DNA from: a phage
Reading direction: 5' to 3' (one strand)
Sequence record: PZ445534.1
DNA length: 64,000 nucleotides
How positions within the stretch are numbered: position 1 is the stretch's first letter; each line of letters starts with the position of its first letter. Position numbers and translations under genes: made by a program. The notes below the pieces were generated by a model. That model did no database searches. It was given only the letters and a program-made list of their open reading frames with translations, and was not told the DNA's origin. Shown one piece after another: positions 8,445 to 60,949 of this stretch.

Positions 8445-8705
8445 TACATCTGGTCAATACACTCGCAAGGTGTACCAGTTCTCTTATGAACTTCTCCGCA
8501 TTTCTACGGAGTGTCGGACTATATCACGTAGCAGTGGTGCTACCGTTGCACTTGGGATGGTCATTAGCTTACCACCCTACTCTACTCAGTTCATACGTTA
8601 AGTATGCTTTTCGATAGTCTCTGAACGTTCCTCTTAAGAGGCTTCGCTGCTGATTACCATATCTTTACAGACTTAGGCTTCCAGCAATTCACAACGTTTT
8701 ACATG
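8445..8705 (-). ncRNA. putative ORF-less group I intron interrupting DNA polymerase motif B
   Basis: Intervening sequence with stop codons; coding strand has R-like GTTCAGAGACTA and S-like GATATAGTCC elements, ends in G; exact splice sites not resolved. Confidence 0.6.
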
Positions 8706-10886
8706 CGCCACTGACGCATAAATGCCATTTTTGGCTTTCTTACGACCTTTTGTAATCTCGTGGAGAAGTTCCTCATCCTGTGTCTCCCTACAACGAACAA
8801 TGTCTTCTTCCTTGTTCAGACCAAAGTAAATACTATTCAGTGTATGTGCATCAGTACCTGTGTAGACTTCATAGAGGTCATTCTCAGCATCATAACGCAG
8901 ATACTTGTCAGTTTCTGGGTTAAGATACTTGTCAAGATGCTTGCAGTAGTATCTACCATCATCTTGCTTAGTGAACTCAACTGACTCTTTACCCTCAGTT
9001 ACCGCTTTAGTGAAGTCTTCATCACCCATAAAGTTACAAAGAAGAACTAGCTGGGCTGAGTTTTGGTCTACAGAGACAACGTTAGTACCTTCTTCACAAA
9101 TCCACACCTCCCTCATAGGTGCTCCATAGACAGCAGCACCAGACGGTACGTTTACAATACCATATTGTGTCATACGTCCAGTTGAAGTACCAAACACCAT
9201 TGCACCAGCACTAAGGCGACCATCAGGACGAATCTGGTTCAACCAACCTTTTTCATCATCTTTTGAGTTCTCAATAGTTCTACGTCGGTGCATCAAAGTA
9301 TAGTACTTAGCAATCTTCTGTCCAAGCTCACCTTCAATCGTATCATAAGATGATTCAGTAAGTTTTGGTGAAGTACGGATTAAGCAAGGCTCAAGCAAAT
9401 CTGTGTATTTCTTCACAGACCAGTTATGCTCAATGTACTGGACACCTTCATGCTCAACATAGCTCAAACCACACCGCTCAACCATTTCCTGCCACTTAGG
9501 ATGCTTTGTAATCATCTTTTTATTGTCTTTGAAACGACAAACTTTGATAGGGCGACCATCTGAGTCTTTCTTGTAATTCCAGTCATCTGGAATCCAACCA
9601 ACTGATTTCAAGTAGTCTTTAACAACTGCTACCTGAGTCATACGAGAAACTTCAAACTCAATTGGTGTATATGGTGCATCAATCAAACCTGTGTAGCGAC
9701 TTGACTCAAGTTCAAAGTGGTTAACAACGTGGCTGTTATAGTACTTCACAGTTTTGACTGTTTTTACTGGCTTCCAGTCTTTGCATTTCTTACCAATCTT
9801 TGCGTTCAACTCATTGCAAATTGCACGAGCATCCTTCATTGCTACAAAACCTTCCTTGTACTCTTCACCAGTTACAGAGTTGGTTGGTGTATAGCAATTC
9901 CTTTTTTCAATGTTAAAAATCTTTGTAGTTGGCTTACCAAATGGTTTGATTTCGTATGTCTGCATCTCACCATTACGTACCTGCTGACGATACTTTGTCT
10001 TAGGGTACTTGGTAATTCTTTTCAGTCCATCTGCATGACCAAATGTTTCAACATACTCATTCCAAGCTTTTGCAAACTCTTCTCCAGTGACTTTACCTTT
10101 GGTCTTAATAGTTGGAGGAAGATGTGGTTCAACCTCTGAAGCAAGCTCATTAGTCAACTTGTCAAGTTCCTTTACATGGAACTCCATAAGCTCTTTATCA
10201 GCTTTCCAACCATTAATAGCTTGTTGACTCATCCAGAAAGATGTTTCTTTAGCTCGCATGTAGGTTTCATAAGTGTCTATGCCACACTTCTTAAGCTTGA
10301 GATACTCATTATCAAGTGCCCGTTTAGTTTTGGCGTTAATACGGATATCTTCTACAACACGAGTGAAGATTTCTGCATTCCACACACCCCAATGTTCAAT
10401 CTCTGGTTTACGAACACCAACACGAGCACCCCATGCAGCCAAGCCATGAGCACCTTTATAACCCTTTGGAGTTGGTCTATCCATCCACTGAACACGAGAC
10501 TGGATAAGAGAATCCTGAAAGAAATTACTCCACGGCTTACACTTTGGATTATCAAAGTTCCATAAATCCGGTGCAATGTGATTGAAAACCCACCAGTCAT
10601 AACCTAGACCATTATGAATGCAAAGACGTTTTGCCTTTAACGCAAACTCAACACCTTCACGTAAGCCACCCTTAATGTACTTGGTATACTTGTGACCGAG
10701 GATAGGCTCATCTGTAAAGACCCATACAGGCGGCTCTTTATCGTCAGATTTATAGTCTGCGAAAGCCATTACGTGCACTTTAGTGAACTCAAGGAGTAAA
10801 CCATCAGTTTCTGTATCACCAACTAAATGTAAGTTTTTAAAATCTACGTTTTCCATTTTTACTCCCTCTAAAATCATTAACCTCAT
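8673..10886 (-). CDS. DNA polymerase (family A, T7 gp5-like) upstream exon/fragment with 3'-5' exonuclease domain
   Basis: Exo motif VGDTETDG near N-terminus; ORF ends inside motif B (RKKAKNGIY...) shortly before an in-frame stop. Confidence 0.85.
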   Translation of the reverse strand: MRLMILEGVKMENVDFKNLHLVGDTETDGLLLEFTKVHVMAFADYKSDDKEPPVWVFTDEPILGHKYTKYIKGGLREGVEFALKAKRLCIHNGLGYDWWVFNHIAPDLWNFDNPKCKPWSNFFQDSLIQSRVQWMDRPTPKGYKGAHGLAAWGARVGVRKPEIEHWGVWNAEIFTRVVEDIRINAKTKRALDNEYLKLKKCGIDTYETYMRAKETSFWMSQQAINGWKADKELMEFHVKELDKLTNELASEVEPHLPPTIKTKGKVTGEEFAKAWNEYVETFGHADGLKRITKYPKTKYRQQVRNGEMQTYEIKPFGKPTTKIFNIEKRNCYTPTNSVTGEEYKEGFVAMKDARAICNELNAKIGKKCKDWKPVKTVKTVKYYNSHVVNHFELESSRYTGLIDAPYTPIEFEVSRMTQVAVVKDYLKSVGWIPDDWNYKKDSDGRPIKVCRFKDNKKMITKHPKWQEMVERCGLSYVEHEGVQYIEHNWSVKKYTDLLEPCLIRTSPKLTESSYDTIEGELGQKIAKYYTLMHRRRTIENSKDDEKGWLNQIRPDGRLSAGAMVFGTSTGRMTQYGIVNVPSGAAVYGAPMREVWICEEGTNVVSVDQNSAQLVLLCNFMGDEDFTKAVTEGKESVEFTKQDDGRYYCKHLDKYLNPETDKYLRYDAENDLYEVYTGTDAHTLNSIYFGLNKEEDIVRCRETQDEELLHEITKGRKKAKNGIYASVAHVKRCELLEA

Positions 10887-24522: not shown

Positions 24523-25722
24523 ATGAACAAAGTACAGATTATTAAAAAGAATGGCTCACTTGAAGAACCTGATATCAAAAAAGTTTTAGCAGCAGTCACA
24601 AAGTCAGCTAACAGAGTTGGTTATAAAGAGCTTCCACCAGATGTTACTCAAGCTCTTGAGTCAGCATTTATGAGGATTCTGGTAAAGTCCACTAAGCAGA
24701 ATAATTTGCTAATTTCGGTAAATGATATTCACAGTATTGTTGAGGGTGCTTTGGCAGAAGTCAATCACGAGATTTATGAGTCTTACTCAACATATAGAAA
24801 TTACCGTAAAGAGGTTGCTCAAAATTGGGATGAACTCTACCAGAAGACCAAAGATACACTCTTCTTAGGCGACCGAGAAAACGCTAATTTTGACAGCAGT
24901 TTAATTTCTACAAAAGGCTCAATTATTCGTGGTTACCTGACTAAAGAAATCTTTAAACAGTACCATTTAACACCAGAGGAACTTGAAGCCATTGAAAAAG
25001 GATTTATCTATATCCATGATTTAAGAGACCTAATTTTTGGTGGTATCAACTGTTGCCTGTTTGACATTGGTAAAGTCCTGAAAGGTGGCTTTGAAATGTC
25101 TGGCATTGAATATTGTGAACCGAAGTCTGTGCTGTCAGCCTTACAGGTTATTGGTGATGTAGTTCTTTCAGCAACTGCACAGCAATTTGGTGGCTTTACT
25201 TTAGCAGAGATTGATAAGGTACTTGTACCGTATGCTAAGAAGTCTCTACGTTACCATGCTGAAAAAGCAACAGCTTATGGTATTCCTAAAGAACATTACC
25301 ACAACTATGTCATGGAGCAGCTACAGATTGAATTAACTCAAGGTTTTCAGTCTCTTGAAATGAAGCTCAATACTGTGCCTTGTAGCCGTGGTGATTTTGC
25401 ATTCACAACTTTGACATTCGGGTTACTTGACTCAGATATGTCTAATGAAGATAACCGACTGCAATACATGATTGCGAGCACTCTCCTAGATGTTCGTATG
25501 AATGGACAAGGTAAGAGCAAGAAACCTGTTGTATTCCCTAAACTGGTTTATATTTATGACCAGAAGAGACACAATGAGAATATCTGTCAAGGCCACCTGT
25601 ACAGTAAAGCTATTGAGTGTTGCTCTAAAGCTATGTATCCAGATTTCTTAAGTGTATCTGGACATGGTGCTGTAGCAGAGGCTTTTGAGCGTTCTGGCAA
25701 GGTAATTTCCCCGATGGGTTAA
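24523..25722 (+). CDS. nrdD: anaerobic ribonucleoside-triphosphate reductase, exon 1
   Basis: ATP-cone-like N-terminus; ORF ends at TAA 25720-25722 which lies at start of intron-like sequence. Confidence 0.75.
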   Translation: MNKVQIIKKNGSLEEPDIKKVLAAVTKSANRVGYKELPPDVTQALESAFMRILVKSTKQNNLLISVNDIHSIVEGALAEVNHEIYESYSTYRNYRKEVAQNWDELYQKTKDTLFLGDRENANFDSSLISTKGSIIRGYLTKEIFKQYHLTPEELEAIEKGFIYIHDLRDLIFGGINCCLFDIGKVLKGGFEMSGIEYCEPKSVLSALQVIGDVVLSATAQQFGGFTLAEIDKVLVPYAKKSLRYHAEKATAYGIPKEHYHNYVMEQLQIELTQGFQSLEMKLNTVPCSRGDFAFTTLTFGLLDSDMSNEDNRLQYMIASTLLDVRMNGQGKSKKPVVFPKLVYIYDQKRHNENICQGHLYSKAIECCSKAMYPDFLSVSGHGAVAEAFERSGKVISPMG

Positions 25723-26023
25723 CAAGCTCTATAGCTCATCTAAAACGTGCCTAAACAGGGAAACTCTACAGATGTAGACAATCCTGTGCTAAATGATGTA
25801 CGATGTAAGAAACTATACAACATAGGAGTCTTACATGCCAAATAACTTCGAATATGAGTTTGAATACATCTAAATGCCGAACGACTAACCGTGATGAATG
25901 TAGCGGTGTAGGGTCAAGCGACTCGAAATGGTACGCTACTTAGAAATAAGTAGAAGATATAGTCTGGACTTACTGGCGACAGTAAGCAGCTTGAATAAAG
26001 CGGGGTAAGCTTAGCGAACTTAC
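25720..26023 (+). ncRNA. putative ORF-less group I intron in nrdD
   Basis: AAACAGGGAAACTCTACAGATGTAGACAATCCTGTGCTAAAT closely resembles the T4 td intron core as recalled; S-like AAGATATAGTC element present; 3' boundary uncertain (26014-26038). Confidence 0.7.
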
Positions 26024-58786: not shown

Positions 58787-58866
58787 AACGCCAGTTTTGA
58801 CAGAAGACCAATTACAGCAAACTTAATCTACTCATCTGAAAGTTAATCGGACAAAGAAGATATTTG
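58787..58866 (+). repeat. inter-tRNA repeat element copy 1 (ACAGAAGACC-N4-TACAGCAA ... GGTCTGG)
   Basis: Conserved 5' and 3' motifs shared with copies at 58953, 59347, 59437. Confidence 0.6.
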
Positions 58867-58875
58867 GTCTGGTCA

Positions 58876-58951
58876 TTAAGAATTGCGGGTATAGAGAAAG
58901 GGCGTCTCACATGTCTCATTAGCATGGTATCGGCAGGTTCGACTCCTGCAC
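58876..58951 (+). tRNA. tRNA with CAT anticodon (Met/fMet/Ile2), irregular acceptor pairing
   Basis: D-arm GAGA-AAGGGCG-TCTC, anticodon arm CATGT-CTCATTA-GCATG, T-arm GCAGGTTCGACTCCTGC; acceptor 6 of 7 pairs. Confidence 0.5.
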
Positions 58952-58952
58952 C

Positions 58953-59025
58953 CGCCTCCAAATTTACAGAAGACCGTTTACAGCAATATTTATTAAATTT
59001 TTAGCGGAAAAATTGAAAGATACGG
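58953..59025 (+). repeat. inter-tRNA repeat element copy 2
   Basis: ACAGAAGACCGTTTACAGCAA ... ACGGTCTGGT. Confidence 0.6.
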
Positions 59026-59034
59026 TCTGGTAAT

Positions 59035-59108
59035 ACTAAATATGGTTAGGAAGCACATAAGGTATGTGCGGTCGCCTGTTAAGCGAATGGCACAGGGTTC
59101 GAATCCCT
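59035..59108 (+). tRNA. tRNA-Asn (anticodon GTT)
   Basis: Acceptor GGTTAGG/ACTAACC, D-arm GCAC-ATAAGGTAT-GTGC, anticodon loop CTGTTAA, T-arm CAGGGTTCGAATCCCTG; no encoded CCA. Confidence 0.6.
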
Positions 59109-59119
59109 GACTAACCGCA

Positions 59120-59207
59120 AAATTAAATGTGTCGTTATCCCGTAGATGGTAGCGGTGGGGACTGTAAATCCCTTGTCATTGAGACTCGGTAGGTTCGACT
59201 CCTACAC
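59120..59207 (+). tRNA. tRNA-Tyr (anticodon GTA), long variable arm
   Basis: Acceptor GTGTCGT/ACGGCAC, anticodon arm GGGGA-CTGTAAA-TCCCT, T-arm GTAGGTTCGACTCCTAC, CCA. Confidence 0.65.
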
Positions 59208-59212
59208 GGCAC

Positions 59213-59289
59213 ACCAATAAAGGCTATGTAGTTTAACTGGAGAAAATACTCCCCTGTCACGGGAGATGATGTGAGTTCAAGTCTCATCG
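59213..59289 (+). tRNA. tRNA-Asp (anticodon GTC)
   Basis: Acceptor GGCTATG/CGTAGCC, anticodon arm CTCCC-CTGTCAC-GGGAG, T-loop TTCAAGT, CCA. Confidence 0.7.
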
Positions 59290-59346
59290 TAGCCGCCAAT
59301 TTTGAGAGGGCTATTTAGCCCCTCCCTTAAAGAGTTCTTACGAGTA

Positions 59347-59428
59347 TTCTTTAAAGGAGCAGAAGACCAAATACAGCAAGAATGTATGATATTTTCAAGC
59401 CAATTCAATTTTGAAAAATTTAAAACTT
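59347..59428 (+). repeat. inter-tRNA repeat element copy 3
   Basis: CAGAAGACCAAATACAGCAA ... CTTGGTCTGGC. Confidence 0.55.
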
Positions 59429-59436
59429 GGTCTGGC

Positions 59437-59572
59437 TCAACAAATTTACAGAAGACCGTTTACAGCAAAACTTAAACAATCTATTTCTCGGTAAAGAAAA
59501 GGCGAAGGTTCGATTCCTTCACTCGGCAGAGGTCGAGTTGGTGTAATGGTAGCACTTAAGATGATAAACAAC
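59437..59572 (+). repeat. inter-tRNA repeat element copy 4 enclosing tRNA halves in permuted order
   Basis: ACAGAAGACCGTTTACAGCAA ... [anticodon-arm-like + T-arm GAAGGTTCGATTCCTTC + 3' acceptor ACTCGGC] GAG [5' acceptor GTCGAGT + D-arm GTGTAATGGTAGCAC] ... ACGGTCTGGT. Confidence 0.5.
59474..59547 (+). other. tRNA-like segments in 3'-half then 5'-half order (permuted tRNA or recombinant tRNA fragments)
   Basis: 3' acceptor ACTCGGC (59512-59518) is complementary, with one G.U, to GTCGAGT (59523-59529) located 4 nt downstream. Confidence 0.4.
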
Positions 59573-59721
59573 GGTCTGGTAATTATCTTTGCAGTAGCTT
59601 ATGTGGCTAATTATGTCGTCCCATGAGTGCCGATGAATTTCCTTAGCATGATTCTAGATTAGCTTAATAGGAAATGACTCTACAGACCCTTTAGCAAGGT
59701 CTGCGTAGGTTACTGCAAAGA

Positions 59722-59797
59722 TGATTTAATGGAAGTGTAGCAGAATGGTGATGCGGCAGACTTTTAATCTGACAGGCGATGGGTTCGAATCCCTCCA
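59722..59797 (+). tRNA. tRNA-Lys (anticodon TTT)
   Basis: Acceptor GGAAGTG/CACTTCT, anticodon loop CTTTTAA, T-loop TTCGAAT with weak T-stem, CCA; homologous to tRNA at 60957. Confidence 0.55.
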
Positions 59798-59802
59798 CTT
59801 CT

Positions 59803-59879
59803 ACCAAAAATGGTTCAGTCGCAGATAAGGTAATGCAAGGGTTTCATAAGCCCTATGAATGTGGGTTCGATTCCCATCT
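59803..59879 (+). tRNA. tRNA with CAT anticodon (Met/fMet/Ile2)
   Basis: Acceptor GGTTCAG/CTGAACC, anticodon arm AGGGT-TTCATAA-GCCCT, T-loop TTCGATT, CCA. Confidence 0.65.
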
Positions 59880-59881
59880 GA

Positions 59882-59957
59882 ACCTCCAATGCTGTGAAAG
59901 CACATATGGATGTGCATTCGGCTGATAACCGAAAGGCAGAAGGTTCGAATCCTTCTC
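59882..59957 (+). tRNA. tRNA-Ile (anticodon GAT)
   Basis: Acceptor GCTGTGA/TCACAGT, D-arm GCAC-ATATGGAT-GTGC, anticodon arm TTCGG-CTGATAA-CCGAA, T-arm GAAGGTTCGAATCCTTC, CCA. Confidence 0.7.
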
Positions 59958-59972
59958 ACAGTACCAATTTCA

Positions 59973-60001
59973 ATAAAGTTGTTGACATTAAGATGTGACT
60001 A
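59973..60001 (+). promoter_or_regulatory. sigma70-like promoter inside tRNA array (TTGACA-17-TATAGT)
   Basis: -35 59973-59978, -10 59996-60001. Confidence 0.55.
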
Positions 60002-60205
60002 CTTTATAGTAACCTTAGTTTTCGTTGCGTAGCGTCTATTTTGCAAATTTAAAATAAATGCAAACGACAATGTTTTTCTGGCAGTAGCTTGATAGGCTAA
60101 ACACCAGTGAGGTCTTCCAATCCCTCATCAAAGAATTTGGCGTACTCGCCCACGGTATGATTAATAAGGTGGGCATCTTTAAGGGCTTTCTAATAGAGTC
60201 TTTAA

Positions 60206-60287
60206 AGATAATTACGGGGCGTATCTCAGCGGTCTTCTAAACCGCCGTTAACCGAGTAAGTGGAGTATGCGGGTTCGAGTCCTGCCG
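60206..60287 (+). tRNA. atypical tRNA-like gene, possible anticodon TCT (Arg)
   Basis: Acceptor CGGGGCG/CGCCTCG, T-arm GCGGGTTCGAGTCCTGC, CCA; hairpin GCGGT-CTTCTAA-ACCGC; D-arm region not canonical. Confidence 0.4.
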
Positions 60288-60430
60288 CCTCGACCAATTT
60301 AGTTAGCAGATTACTTAGACGACCTAAGCGGGTCTTCCTGTAGGGAGGTGGTCTGTATCTCATGTTTTCCAGAACATGTAAATAATCTGAGAAGGGGCTT
60401 TACAGTGTTGAGATAATACGGTAAGCTTCG

Positions 60431-60513
60431 AATTATAGTATGGGACGATGTTAAGACTCTAAGGCATGAGCAACGGCCTCCAAAACCGTTTCAAAGGGGT
60501 TCAACTCCTCCGT
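60431..60513 (+). tRNA. atypical tRNA-like gene, possible anticodon CCA (Trp)
   Basis: Perfect acceptor ATGGGAC/GTCCCAT, T-loop TTCAACT, CCA; enlarged D region. Confidence 0.4.
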
Positions 60514-60526
60514 CCCATGCCAAAGT

Positions 60527-60614
60527 CTTATTAGGGGTAGGTAGCGGCTAATGGCAGCCAAACAGTCTTGAAAACTGTTGCCACTGTAGAGATACGGTGA
60601 GGGTTCGACTCCTT
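60527..60614 (+). tRNA. tRNA-Ser (anticodon TGA), long variable arm
   Basis: Acceptor GGTAGGT/ACTTACC, anticodon arm ACAGT-CTTGAAA-ACTGT, 20-nt variable arm, T-loop TTCGACT. Confidence 0.6.
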
Positions 60615-60770
60615 TACTTACCGCCTAATAAGATTTTAAAGCCAAGCTTCATTCGGATGTCGCTTTGGTATCCCTCGTGTATTGTCGTACACACTGATAA
60701 AACACCTAGTAGGTGTCACGGAGAAGAGATAATATCAAGCTCTCCAAAGGTTCTAGTCACCGGATTAAAC

Positions 60771-60797
60771 AAGACTATGCAAAGACCTTTTTAGGTC
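60771..60797 (+). terminator. rho-independent terminator inside tRNA array
   Basis: AGACC-TTTTT-AGGTCT plus TTTTT. Confidence 0.5.
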
Positions 60798-60872
60798 TTT
60801 TTAGAGGGCTTCTAAGGTTATTACAGCTTGTTGTGGAACCTTGTTGCTTAGGTTCTTAGAAGTTCTCTAAAA

Positions 60873-60949
60873 AGATTTAATGCACCTATAGCCCAACTGG
60901 TAGAGGCAGCAGACTTAGAATCTGCTCAGTGTGAGTTCGAATCTCTCTA
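60873..60949 (+). tRNA. tRNA with anticodon TAG (Leu by anticodon) but short variable arm
   Basis: Acceptor GCACCTA/TAGGTGT, anticodon arm GCAGA-CTTAGAA-TCTGC, T-loop TTCGAAT, CCA. Confidence 0.55.

What the first reader, a model, noticed from the sequence alone, without database searches (positions are those of the whole stretch)
59973..60205. Promoter-driven structured non-tRNA sequence inside the tRNA array
A strong sigma70-like promoter (TTGACA-17-TATAGT, 59973-60001) is followed by about 200 nt with no canonical tRNA but several stem-loops (CGCCCAC...GTGGGC at 60138-60170; GAGG-TCTTCCAAT-CCCTC T-arm-like element at 60098-60118) before the next tRNA at 60206. A second such gap lies at 60290-60430. 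These may encode small RNAs (tRNA-like, Y-RNA-like or processing leaders).
Basis: seen in the sequence. Interest (0 to 1): 0.45.

Follow-up and report, generated by a model that had tools for sequence, protein, structure and literature searches.

The report
Phage tmRNA-like tag-template RNA
The promoter-driven "gap" in this Felix O1-like phage's tRNA array encodes a ~200-nt RNA, shared unannotated by many enterobacterial phages including P1, that copies the tag-coding half of the bacterial ribosome-rescue RNA (tmRNA) and has a 5' arm complementary to the host's own tmRNA, which suggests these phages block or reprogram host ribosome rescue.

Summary
The promoter is at 59982-60010 and the next tRNA-like gene starts at 60215.

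The ~198 nt in between (60017-60214) are not tRNA-like. They resemble the template half of tmRNA:
- an A/U-rich linker with A at -4;
- a GCA resume codon with no start codon;
- a 10-codon tag, ANDNVFLAVA (E. coli: ANDENYALAA);
- stop codons in a helix loop;
- two covarying H-type pseudoknots.

There is no tRNA-like domain. ARAGORN finds nothing and Rfam scores 15.8 bits against a cut-off of 47.

The RNA belongs to an unannotated family. It occurs in Felixounavirus, Kolesnikvirus, Ackermannviridae, Klebsiella siphoviruses, lambdoid prophages (Q-holin gap), and SSU5-like and P1 phage-plasmids. 691 of 5,426 complete E. coli genomes have a match.

The conserved 5' arm is complementary to host tmRNA nt ~69/76-106, covering A86, the resume codon and codons 2-5. 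It is much less complementary to the phage RNA's own template.

Best model (inferred, untested): the RNA anneals to host tmRNA, masks the host tag template and offers its own. The main rival is a pure antisense inhibitor or decoy.

I rate it a new variant of a known kind, of high interest.

The parts
59982..60010 (+). Sigma-70-type promoter TTGACA-17-TATAGT. The predicted start is near A60017.
   Evidence: 11 of 12 match, best in region. Promoters are similarly placed in phiEa21-4, SSU5-like and L020-like members. The start site itself is inferred. In Felix O1 proper, about 90 nt are inserted between this promoter and the RNA.
60017..60214 (+). Predicted ~198-nt tmRNA-like RNA. The 3' end is inferred from RNase P cleavage at the next tRNA-like gene.
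   Evidence: Fold z = -3.51. Family covariance model hit of 123.8 bits at 60045-60176. Weak Rfam tmRNA hit at 60024-60213: 15.8 bits, E = 2e-4, cut-off 47.
60017..60045 (+). 5' antisense arm. Block A is GUUUUCG (60018-60024) and block B is GCGUCU (60032-60037). The arm is complementary to E. coli tmRNA nt 76-106.
   Evidence: RNAduplex gives -26.0 kcal/mol against ssrA 76-106 and -13.2 against the RNA's own template. The two-block pattern occurs once in the window and once in the ssrA locus, on the minus strand at ssrA 86-104, with 0 of 200 shuffles matching. nhmmer's best hit is ssrA on the minus strand.
60046..60059 (+). A/U-rich linker with U at -5 (60055) and A at -4 (60056) before the resume codon.
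   Evidence: A at -4 is invariant and U or C at -5 occurs in all 20 aligned subfamily representatives. The equivalent tmRNA A86 is essential, and U85 tolerates C (PMC2481249).
60060..60095 (+). Tag template: GCA resume codon plus nine codons, encoding ANDNVFLAVA, followed by UGA UAG.
   Evidence: alignment to the tmRNA tag region; 20 tag variants AN[DE]xx[FY]LAVA, always 10 codons then a stop. Variable sites by codon position are 2/4/8. There is no in-frame start codon, and an in-frame stop lies 6-17 codons upstream. P1 has ANDDLMMVAA.
60078..60107 (+). Helix 5 analogue: CUGG/CCAG (60078-81 / 60104-07) plus an inner helix (60085-88 / 60096-99). The stop codons lie in its loop.
   Evidence: helix 1 is 99.6% paired and helix 2 is 87.9% paired; present in the minimum-free-energy fold.
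60108..60140 (+). Pseudoknot A (PK2-like). S1 is UGAGG/CCUCA (60108-12 / 60123-27). S2 is CCAA/UUGG (60117-20 / 60137-40).
   Evidence: S1 has five clean pair types with compensatory changes, and P1's CGGGG/CCCCG, read by eye, is a sixth. S2 is a perfect 4 bp in 76 of 76 unique members, with types CCGA:UCGG, CCAA:UUGG, CCAG:CUGG, UUCC:GGGA, CUCC:GGAG and GUCG:CGAC.
60141..60174 (+). Pseudoknot B (PK3-like). S1 is CGUACU/GGUAUG (60141-46 / 60154-59). S2 is GCCCAC/GUGGGC (60148-53 / 60169-74). The loop carries the conserved AUUAAUAA.
   Evidence: S1 is 100% paired, with 9 types and 3 pairs showing double changes. S2 types include GCCC:GGGC, GCCCAC:GUGGGC, GCCCUGA:UCAGGGC, GGCGGGAG:CUCCCGCC and UCCCCG:CGGGGA.
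60174..60208 (+). Terminal 15-bp hairpin. Its sequence and length vary between relatives.
   Evidence: minimum-free-energy fold. Felix O1 has a different, longer hairpin here.
60215..60296 (+). Neighbouring D-armless tRNA-Arg(UCU)-like gene with encoded CCA and, in this copy, G3:U70. It is probably an independent gene that sets the 3' end of the RNA.
   Evidence: Rfam tRNA 31.7 bits. The family occurs without any tmRNA-like RNA upstream in 7t3, KpS8, muut and 14 IMG/VR types. Its anticodon stem covaries, the loop is CUUCUAA in all but three variants, and G3:U70 appears in only some members.

Best explanation
60017-60214 encodes a ~200-nt phage RNA derived from, or converged on, the template half of tmRNA.

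Shown:
- It has the linker with A at -4, an Ala resume codon, a 10-codon ssrA-like tag, stop codons in a helix-5 loop and two pseudoknots.
- It has no alanine-accepting tRNA-like domain.
- Its 5' arm is complementary to the host tmRNA segment that holds A86, the -1 triplet, the resume codon and codons 2-5. In the longer forms this reaches the 3' strand of PK1.

Inferred mechanism:
- The RNA anneals by this arm to host tmRNA.
- The host molecule supplies the tRNA-like domain, alanine charging, SmpB and EF-Tu.
- The duplex masks the host tag template. The phage linker and resume codon emerge next to PK1, where the host linker normally starts.
- Rescued ribosomes would then resume on the phage template and add ...LAVA tags instead of ...ALAA tags. 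In effect this is a host-phage hybrid two-piece tmRNA.

The consequence of the altered tag (changed ClpXP, SspB or ClpAP handling) is unknown.
For: Template features:
- Searches give reciprocal weak hits exactly on the tmRNA tag region. Rfam tmRNA scores 15.8 bits on the window. The family model scores 13.1 bits (E = 0.004) on E. coli ssrA nt 75-134.
- A at -4 is invariant. (PMC2481249): the equivalent A86 is essential.
- 20 tag variants AN[DE]xx[FY]LAVA, always 10 codons then a stop. Variation is concentrated at third codon positions (2/4/8). There is no start codon.
- the P1 form keeps the frame and length (ANDDLMMVAA).

Structure:
- 95.6% of cells paired, 7 pairs with double changes, 0 of 500 shuffles reaching the covariation score, and slid controls at 30-42% paired.
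- both pseudoknot second stems are kept through several pair types.

Family breadth:
-.

Antisense arm:
- in 14 of 15 subfamily representatives, the best duplex site on the 363-nt tmRNA is the same, ending at nt 105/106.
- duplex energy is -22.6 to -35.6 kcal/mol with host nt 61-112, against -7.4 to -20.7 with the RNA's own equivalent region, in 15 of 15.
- a profile of the 5' arms has its best hit in a 512-kb search space on ssrA minus strand nt 105-69.
- the two-block signature GTTTTCG-N2-12-GCGNCT occurs once in the ssrA locus, antisense at nt 86-104, with 0 of 200 shuffles matching.
- the target segment is identical in E. coli and Pantoea tmRNA.
- in four subfamilies a promoter puts the start within 0-2 nt of block A; in lambdoid forms a long covarying hairpin abuts it.
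Against: - Nothing is experimental. Expression, RNA ends, pairing and tagging are all inferred.
- No tmRNA is known to accept a template supplied in trans by another RNA. The hybrid would not close the pseudoknot ring.
- The longer arms would disrupt PK1. A duplex on the host template could simply inactivate tmRNA.
- Duplex energies beat mononucleotide shuffles clearly only in the long-arm forms (z = -3 to -5). Short-arm forms give z = 0 to -2.3, and L020's best site lies elsewhere.
- The 15 representatives are homologous, not independent.
- The Salmonella tag is ANDETYALAA, which implies one mismatch in block A.
- phiEa21-4 has a degenerate block B, although the Erwiniaceae target (represented here by Pantoea) is unchanged.
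- Part of the tag conservation was imposed by the search pattern used (codons 1-3 and 7-9).
Confidence: 0.4

Rival explanations
1. Antisense inhibitor or decoy. The 5' arm anneals to host tmRNA and blocks loading of its template, or triggers its cleavage. The tmRNA-like body only helps it co-localise, or titrates factors that bind this part of tmRNA (S1, RNase R, secondary SmpB sites). The phage template is never translated.
For: The complementarity evidence is the same as for the main model. A duplex over nt 86-106 should not fit the mRNA channel (inference). The long arms also invade the PK1 3' strand. A phage TLD-only tmRNA (DS6A) is already thought to inhibit tmRNA by titrating SmpB (PMC4131195).
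Against: A decoy does not need a fixed 10-codon frame, a stop codon in the helix loop, an invariant A at -4, third-position-biased variation or D/E and F/Y exchanges. The phage template has diverged from the host's exactly where self-pairing would otherwise occur, yet it keeps tag-like coding.
Confidence: 0.3
2. Unconventional cis tmRNA. The template RNA stays joined to the tRNA-like gene immediately downstream (60215-60296; G3:U70, A73, CCA). The whole 60017-60296 transcript would then act as a tmRNA with its template placed 5' of the acceptor domain.
For: The adjacent gene has the AlaRS identity pair G3:U70, A73 and an encoded CCA, and lacks a D-arm, as a tmRNA tRNA-like domain does. The two genes stay adjacent in Felix O1. 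Some lambdoid members have a tRNA-like domain ending in ACCA downstream.
Against: The D-armless tRNA is an independent family. It has a covarying anticodon stem and a near-invariant UCU loop, and it occurs without any template RNA in 7t3, KpS8, muut and others. G3:U70 is absent in many members. Most template-RNA subfamilies have no T-arm within -400 to +1000 nt. RNase P would be expected to separate the two (established tRNA processing; inference here).
Confidence: 0.07
3. Stand-alone translation. The structured element in front of a GCA codon drives initiator-independent translation, comparable to the CrPV IGR IRES starting on Ala. This would yield a free ssrA-like decapeptide that competes for SspB or ClpX.
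For: Peptide-level conservation without a start codon. Retention of N3, D/E4 and an aromatic residue at tag position 7, which are SspB contact positions in the E. coli tag (my knowledge of Flynn et al. 2001).
Against: There is no precedent in bacteria for a natural element of this type. It does not explain the antisense arm. Inhibition by a free peptide would need very high concentrations.
Confidence: 0.05
4. Inert relic or mere spacer. It would be a decaying fragment of a captured ssrA gene, or a processing leader for the downstream tRNA.
For: It lies in a tRNA array rich in homing-endonuclease insertions and degenerate tRNA remnants.
Against: It is conserved as a unit across unrelated phage families, with compensatory changes in four helices. 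It has its own promoters, an intact tag frame in all 100 members examined — 99 plus P1 — and stands alone in non-tRNA contexts.
Confidence: 0.03

Closest known systems
One-piece tmRNA (SsrA; Rfam RF00023)
   Same: A/U-rich linker with A at -4. GCA resume codon with no start codon. A 10-codon tag beginning ANDx, with an aromatic residue in the same place and a hydrophobic/Ala C-terminus. Stop codons in the loop of helix 5. H-type pseudoknots following the template.
   Different: No tRNA-like domain: no acceptor stem, T-arm, CCA or P2 helix. Two pseudoknots downstream instead of three. The PK1 position is taken by an arm antisense to host tmRNA. The tag ends in VA, not the AA seen in every bacterial tag listed. 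It scores 15.8 bits against a 47-bit cut-off, and ARAGORN is negative, although ARAGORN finds the Pantoea tmRNA.
Two-piece (permuted) tmRNA of alpha-proteobacteria, cyanobacteria and some beta-proteobacteria (RF01849, RF04321)
   Same: The template is carried on a separate 'coding piece' held to the acceptor part only by base pairing. This is the closest functional analogy to the proposed host-phage hybrid.
   Different: In known cases both pieces come from one permuted gene, and they pair through the acceptor stem and P2. Here the partner would be the intact host tmRNA, and pairing is to its template region. The RF04321 hit is 14.6-22 bits against a cut-off of 47.
Phage-borne tmRNA genes (mycobacteriophage Bxz1 group, Bacillus phage G; DS6A TLD-only)
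   Same: Phage-encoded derivatives of tmRNA. DS6A shows that a partial tmRNA can be kept by a phage and is thought to interfere with host trans-translation (PMC4131195).
   Different: Those are complete tmRNAs or the tRNA-like half. This is the complementary half plus an antisense arm. That 2014 census of RefSeq viral genomes (November 2012 download) reported no tmRNA in enterobacterial phages. I assume, but did not check, that Felix O1, P1 and phiEa21-4 were among them.
Trans-acting antisense sRNAs and RNA sponges of enterobacterial phages and prophages (e.g. DicF)
   Same: A conserved seed at or near the 5' end, complementary to a host RNA. In P1 the RNA lies directly after a 'dicF-like region' in the C1-controlled ban leader.
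   Different: The target is tmRNA rather than an mRNA. The complementarity is long (20-30 bp in blocks). The RNA also carries a translatable-looking template. Hfq dependence was not tested.

Membership tests
tmRNA (RF00023) | tRNA-like domain: 7-bp acceptor stem with G3:U70, T-arm and 3' CCA, closing the molecule through helix P2 | tested here: not met
   No such element in 60017-60214. ARAGORN finds no tmRNA in the window or in 20 related loci, yet finds the Pantoea tmRNA. Most subfamilies have no T-arm within -400 to +1000 nt. The adjacent 60215-60296 gene belongs to an independent tRNA family.
tmRNA (RF00023) | Resume codon without a start codon, preceded by a single-stranded linker with a near-universal A at -4 (A86) | tested here: met
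   GCA at 60060. A at -4 is invariant and U or C at -5 occurs in all 20 representatives. No in-frame start codon in six of the seven members checked (phiEa21-4 has in-frame AUG and UUG), and an in-frame stop lies 6-17 codons upstream. Requirement taken from PMC2481249.
tmRNA (RF00023) | Short tag reading frame under peptide-level selection, ending in a hydrophobic/Ala C-terminus and a stop codon | tested here: met
   There are 20 variants AN[DE]xx[FY]LAVA plus ANDDLMMVAA, always 10 codons. Variable sites by codon position are 2/4/8. Caveats: part of the frame was fixed by the search pattern, and the tag ends in VA, not AA. A terminal LVA is a ClpX degron (PMC10862746), but AVA is untested.
tmRNA (RF00023) | Stop codon in the loop of helix 5, followed by pseudoknots | tested here: met
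   Helix 5 and two H-type pseudoknots are supported by covariation. There are two pseudoknots rather than three.
tmRNA (RF00023) | Pseudoknot PK1 upstream of the template | tested here: inconclusive
   The 5' region can form hairpins or pseudoknots in some subfamilies (by eye; fold), but no common structure was established. Its conserved blocks are better explained as antisense to host tmRNA.
tmRNA (RF00023) | Reaches the curated Rfam score | tested here: not met
   15.8 bits in the window and 11.7 bits or less in relatives, against a cut-off of 47.
tmRNA (RF00023) | Alanine charging, SmpB and EF-Tu binding | not testable with these tools
   Needs biochemistry. No SmpB homologue is encoded in the 64-kb window.
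Two-piece permuted tmRNA (RF04321, RF01849) | Acceptor piece (T-arm, 3' acceptor strand, CCA) encoded upstream of a coding piece that begins with the 5' acceptor strand | tested here: not met
   A promoter or a hairpin lies directly upstream. The RNA starts with GUUUUCG, and no partner CGAAAAC-N-CCA next to a T-arm exists in the window. RF04321 scores 22 bits or less against a cut-off of 47.
Trans-acting antisense sRNA | Conserved, accessible seed complementary to a defined host RNA, better than chance | tested here: met
   The first 6 nt are unpaired in the minimum-free-energy fold. Significance is modest for the short-arm forms.
Trans-acting antisense sRNA | Demonstrated pairing or regulation in vivo; chaperone dependence | not testable with these tools
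   No transcriptome or interactome data were available to me. Literature searches found no description.
   There is no tRNA hit in 60011-60214, even at E <= 10. The 'T-arm-like' element is pseudoknot stem S1 with a 10-11-nt loop.

The most novel reading that the evidence does not exclude
Enterobacterial phages (Felix O1 group, P1, SSU5-like, lambdoid, Vi1-like and Klebsiella siphoviruses) carry a trans-acting "coding piece". It docks by about 20-30 bp onto the host's tmRNA next to PK1, silences the host tag template and makes stalled ribosomes resume on a phage-specified template. The result would be a host-virus hybrid two-piece tmRNA that rewrites the degradation tag (…ALAA to …LAVA) during infection.
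Probability: 0.4. Interest if true: 0.95.

Novelty: new variant of a known kind. Interest (0 to 1): 0.85.

Why it matters
Trans-translation is the main ribosome-rescue and quality-control pathway of bacteria, and it is known to affect the growth of several phages. Until now, a virus-encoded handle on it was known only as whole or TLD-only tmRNA genes in a few actinobacteriophages and in phage G.

A widespread, unannotated RNA that combines a tmRNA-type tag template with an antisense arm against host tmRNA would have four consequences:
1. It would add a new class of phage-host RNA interaction, present in the model phage P1 and matched in about 13% of complete E. coli genomes.
2. It would show that the template of tmRNA can be supplied or blocked in trans. 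This makes long-standing questions directly testable, such as how the resume codon is positioned and whether the pseudoknot ring must be closed.
3. It would predict a new C-terminal tag (…[F/Y]LAVA) to look for in proteomes of infected cells.
4. It would give annotators a covariance model for a gene now left blank in hundreds of genomes.

Tried and rejected
- Adjacent tRNA-like gene as the missing tRNA-like domain: rejected as the general answer. That gene is an independent D-armless tRNA-Arg(UCU)-like family, found alone in other phages and often without G3:U70.
- Phage-encoded acceptor piece pairing with GUUUUCG: no CGAAAAC next to a T-arm in the window, and no consistent partner within -400 to +1000 nt in 25 representatives.
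- Second, degenerate copy at 59560-59700 (shared GCAGTAGCTT): only a 10-mer is shared, and the family model finds a single copy in the window.
- Whole-length RNAduplex against tmRNA: uninformative, because it forces full-length duplexes. It also timed out once.
- IMG/VR pattern AAACACCAGNNNGGTCNNNNCC: mis-specified, and it returned only chance hits.
- Automated "longest stem" calls for the pseudoknot second stems picked alternative pairings. The swap null was weak (59%), so the S2 evidence rests on the table of pair types.
- Host-phage covariation test through Erwiniaceae: the Pantoea tmRNA has the same target as E. coli, so it is uninformative. The Salmonella contig ended before ssrA.
- SmpB in the window: none.
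- Conventional small ORFs overlapping the region (27 aa on +, 46 aa on -): not pursued. Conservation follows RNA helices and the tag frame.
- Literature: seven searches found no description of this RNA. The P1 record marks only a "dicF-like region" just upstream.

Full report
**Where we are.** The window is a Felix O1-like myovirus (Felixounavirus). Positions 59300-60900 match 270 phage records at 80-99% identity. ARAGORN finds 25 tRNAs between 58.6 and 63.6 kb, and none between 59967 and 60535.

**Checking the observation.**
- The promoter TTGACA-17-TATAGT is real but lies at 59982-60010. It matches 11 of 12 positions and is the best site in the region.
- The "next tRNA" is at 60215-60296. 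It is a D-armless element that only Rfam's tRNA model detects (31.7 bits, cut-off 29).
- The interval folds better than shuffles (z = -3.5).

**What it is.**
- A permissive Rfam scan aligned 60024-60213 to tmRNA at 15.8 bits (E = 2e-4), far below the 47-bit cut-off. The match was carried by AAAAUAAAU-GCAAACGACAA.
- Read in that frame, 60060-60095 is GCA AAC GAC AAU GUU UUU CUG GCA GUA GCU UGA UAG. This encodes ANDNVFLAVA followed by two stops. E. coli tmRNA encodes ANDENYALAA followed by two stops.
- There is no in-frame start codon, and an in-frame stop lies 10 codons upstream.

**It is a family.** The same module occurs, always in unannotated gaps, in very different phages:

| Phage group | Example |
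|---|---|
| Kolesnikvirus | phiEa21-4 |
| Klebsiella siphoviruses | BUCT610, KP13-27 |
| Ackermannviridae | May |
| SSU5-like | SSU5 |
| Lambdoid prophages (between Q and the holin) | L133 |
| P1 and P1-like phage-plasmids (between dmt and tRNA-Asn) | L132, L238 |

- A total of 99 sequences in 24 sequence clusters were collected: the window, seven loci from named phage genomes and 91 IMG/VR loci.
- In P1 the record marks only a "dicF-like region" just upstream.
- 691 of 5,426 complete E. coli genomes have a match, and none of the listed matches has an RNA gene annotated under it (a few lie under hypothetical-protein CDSs).
- In species-representative genomes, the clear hits are Buttiauxella, Kluyvera and Pseudocitrobacter.
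- A covariance model built here (R1) recovers 73 of 73 members at 90-145 bits.
- ARAGORN and Rfam call no tmRNA in any of them. ARAGORN does find the Pantoea tmRNA.
- A 2014 census of ssrA in RefSeq viral genomes found it only in mycobacteriophages; phage G and DS6A were added from outside that dataset (PMC4131195).
- Seven literature searches found nothing on this RNA.

**Anatomy and evidence for function.**
- Tag:
  - It is always 10 codons followed by a stop.
  - There are 20 variants AN[DE]xx[FY]LAVA, and P1 has ANDDLMMVAA.
  - Variable sites by codon position are 2/4/8.
  - Part of this conservation was imposed by my search pattern. The BLAST-found subfamilies and P1 are free of that bias.
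- Frame determinant:
  - A at -4 is invariant, and -5 is U or C.
  - In E. coli tmRNA the equivalent A86 is essential, and U85 tolerates C (PMC2481249).
- Helices:
  - The stops lie in the loop of a helix (60078-60107).
  - Two H-type pseudoknots follow, at 60108-60140 and 60141-60174.
  - On the 62 distinct rows, 95.6% of cells pair, and 7 of 19 pairs show changes on both sides.
  - 0 of 500 shuffles reach the covariation score, and slid controls pair at 30-42%.
- Pseudoknot second stems: both are maintained through six or more pair types.
- Reciprocal test: R1 with filters off hits E. coli ssrA only at nt 75-134 (13.1 bits, E = 0.004).

**What is missing.**
- There is no acceptor stem, T-arm or CCA in the RNA. 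Most subfamilies have none within -400 to +1000 nt. No SmpB gene is in the window.
- The adjacent 60215-60296 gene has G3:U70, A73 and CCA, but it belongs to a separate family:
  - it lacks a D-arm;
  - its anticodon stem covaries;
  - its loop is CUUCUAA in all but three variants;
  - it stands alone in 7t3, KpS8, muut and others;
  - it often lacks G3:U70.

  So it is not the general partner.

**The 5' arm.**
- The RNA starts with an invariant GUUUUCG. It is set at the 5' end by a promoter in four subfamilies and abutted by a long covarying hairpin in lambdoid forms.
- A second block, GCGACU (here GCGUCU), follows 2-12 nt later.
- Both blocks are complementary, in antiparallel order, to E. 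coli tmRNA. Block A pairs with C98-C104 (tag codons 3-5). Block B pairs with A86-C91 (A86, the -1 triplet and the start of the resume codon).
- The signature GTTTTCG-N2-12-GCGNCT occurs once in the ssrA locus, on the minus strand at nt 86-104, with 0 of 200 shuffles matching. It occurs once in the 64-kb window.
- In 14 of 15 subfamily representatives, the best RNAduplex site for the first ~34 nt anywhere on tmRNA ends at nt 105/106 and runs back to nt 52-81, mostly 64-81.
- Duplex energy with the host is -22.6 to -35.6 kcal/mol. With the RNA's own equivalent region it is -7.4 to -20.7, in 15 of 15.
- A profile of the arms has its best hit in a 512-kb space on ssrA minus strand nt 105-69 (E = 0.11).
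- The target is identical in Pantoea.
- Caveats:
  - z-scores against shuffles are strong only for the long arms.
  - The representatives are related, not independent.
  - The Salmonella tag ANDETYALAA implies one mismatch.

**Mechanism (inference).**
- The arm would anneal to the single-stranded resume region of host tmRNA and mask its template.
- In the short-arm forms, including this window, the duplex ends opposite host nt ~76-81, beside PK1.
- A 14-16-nt A/U-rich linker then leads to the phage resume codon. The host's own linker is 11 nt.
- The hybrid therefore resembles a two-piece tmRNA. The host would supply the alanine-charged tRNA-like domain and SmpB, and the phage would supply the template.
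- This accounts for both halves of the molecule. I give it 0.4.
- A pure inhibitor or decoy explains the arm but not the coding-type conservation (0.3).
- The cis-tRNA, free-peptide and relic readings are weaker.
- Whether ...LAVA is a degron is open. A terminal LVA is a strong ClpX tag (PMC10862746), but every bacterial tag listed ends in AA.

**Second gap (60297-60441).** It is structured (z = -2.5). By eye it shares GGAGGUGGUCUGUAUCUC plus a hairpin with phiEa21-4. It has no Rfam match, and I did not resolve it.

**Verdict.** This is a real, conserved, unannotated phage RNA. It fails tmRNA membership because it has no tRNA-like domain, but it works like, or on, the template half of tmRNA. 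I rate it a new variant of a known kind, with a plausible categorically new mechanism.

Noticed in passing
window 60215-60296; also L129-L131, L211-L236: A family of D-armless tRNA-Arg(UCU/CCU)-like genes found in many unrelated phages (jumbo 7t3/PBECO4, Vequintavirinae, Stephanstirmvirinae, Felixounavirus). Features: a conserved GUAUCUCA after the acceptor stem, a covarying anticodon stem, the loop CUUCUAA in all but three variants, and a conserved 22-nt 'variable' segment UUAAYCGAGUAAYUGGAGUAU that may supply the missing D-stem strand. ARAGORN misses it, and the 7t3 record calls it 'tRNA-TERM'. The Felix-type copy has G3:U70 and A73, the alanine identity set.
   Followed up: partly
window 60442-60516: A tRNA-Trp(CCA)-like gene with an oversized D region (about 16 extra nt) and a C-A mismatch closing the anticodon stem. 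ARAGORN misses it, and it scores only 23 bits on Rfam tRNA-Sec. Felix O1 keeps it, with changes in the anticodon loop but the same CCA.
   Followed up: no
It shares a block, GGAGGUGGUCUGUAUCUC plus a hairpin plus UGAGAAG, with Erwinia phage phiEa21-4. In Felix O1, an HNH endonuclease gene is inserted between the D-armless tRNA and this block. Its function is unknown.
   Followed up: partly
window 58800-59590: Four copies of CAGAAGACC-N4-ACAGCAA (58801, 58966, 59360, 59449). Each is followed 50-120 nt later by GGTCTGG (58866, 59027, 59430, 59576). AGACC and GGUCU could pair. These may be repeated spacer units between tRNAs, such as processing sites or endonuclease insertion scars.
   Followed up: no
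window 59500-59530: An orphan T-arm plus 3' acceptor-like strand (GAAGG-TTCGATT-CCTTC-ACTCGGC) with no matching 5' half. It is probably a tRNA remnant. The terminator scan flags its complement.
   Followed up: no
window 8494-8776 (-) and 25605-25986 (+): Two group I introns score above the Rfam cut-off (61.7 and 54.6 bits).
   Followed up: no
L004, L005, L015, L022, L027, L047, L062, L065 (lambdoid and Klebsiella siphovirus forms): The template RNA is flanked by long hairpins with the consensus AGGUAAGAGCAUUG...CAGUGCUCUUUCC. Their stems covary, their tips vary and some contain T-arm-like hairpins. Tandem domains follow, closed by GUUGUGGUG/CACCACAAC. In L047 and L062 these are clearly tRNA-like, with a canonical T-loop and, in L047, a 3' end reading A-CCA. 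They may be RNase III-type processing modules and degenerate tRNA cassettes, and together they would make a 600-900-nt structured RNA region.
   Followed up: partly
L238 (phage P1, NC_005856: 68791-69347): In P1 the RNA lies in the leader of the C1-repressed ban operon. It sits directly after the terminator of the annotated 'dicF-like region' and before tRNA-Asn and tRNA-Thr. It should therefore be made early after induction.
   Followed up: partly
window 60787-60885: A long, imperfect inverted repeat (CUUUUUAGGUCUUUUUAGAGGGCUUCUAAGG...) just before tRNA-Leu. It gives spurious plant-miRNA hits (30 bits against a cut-off of 52).
   Followed up: no
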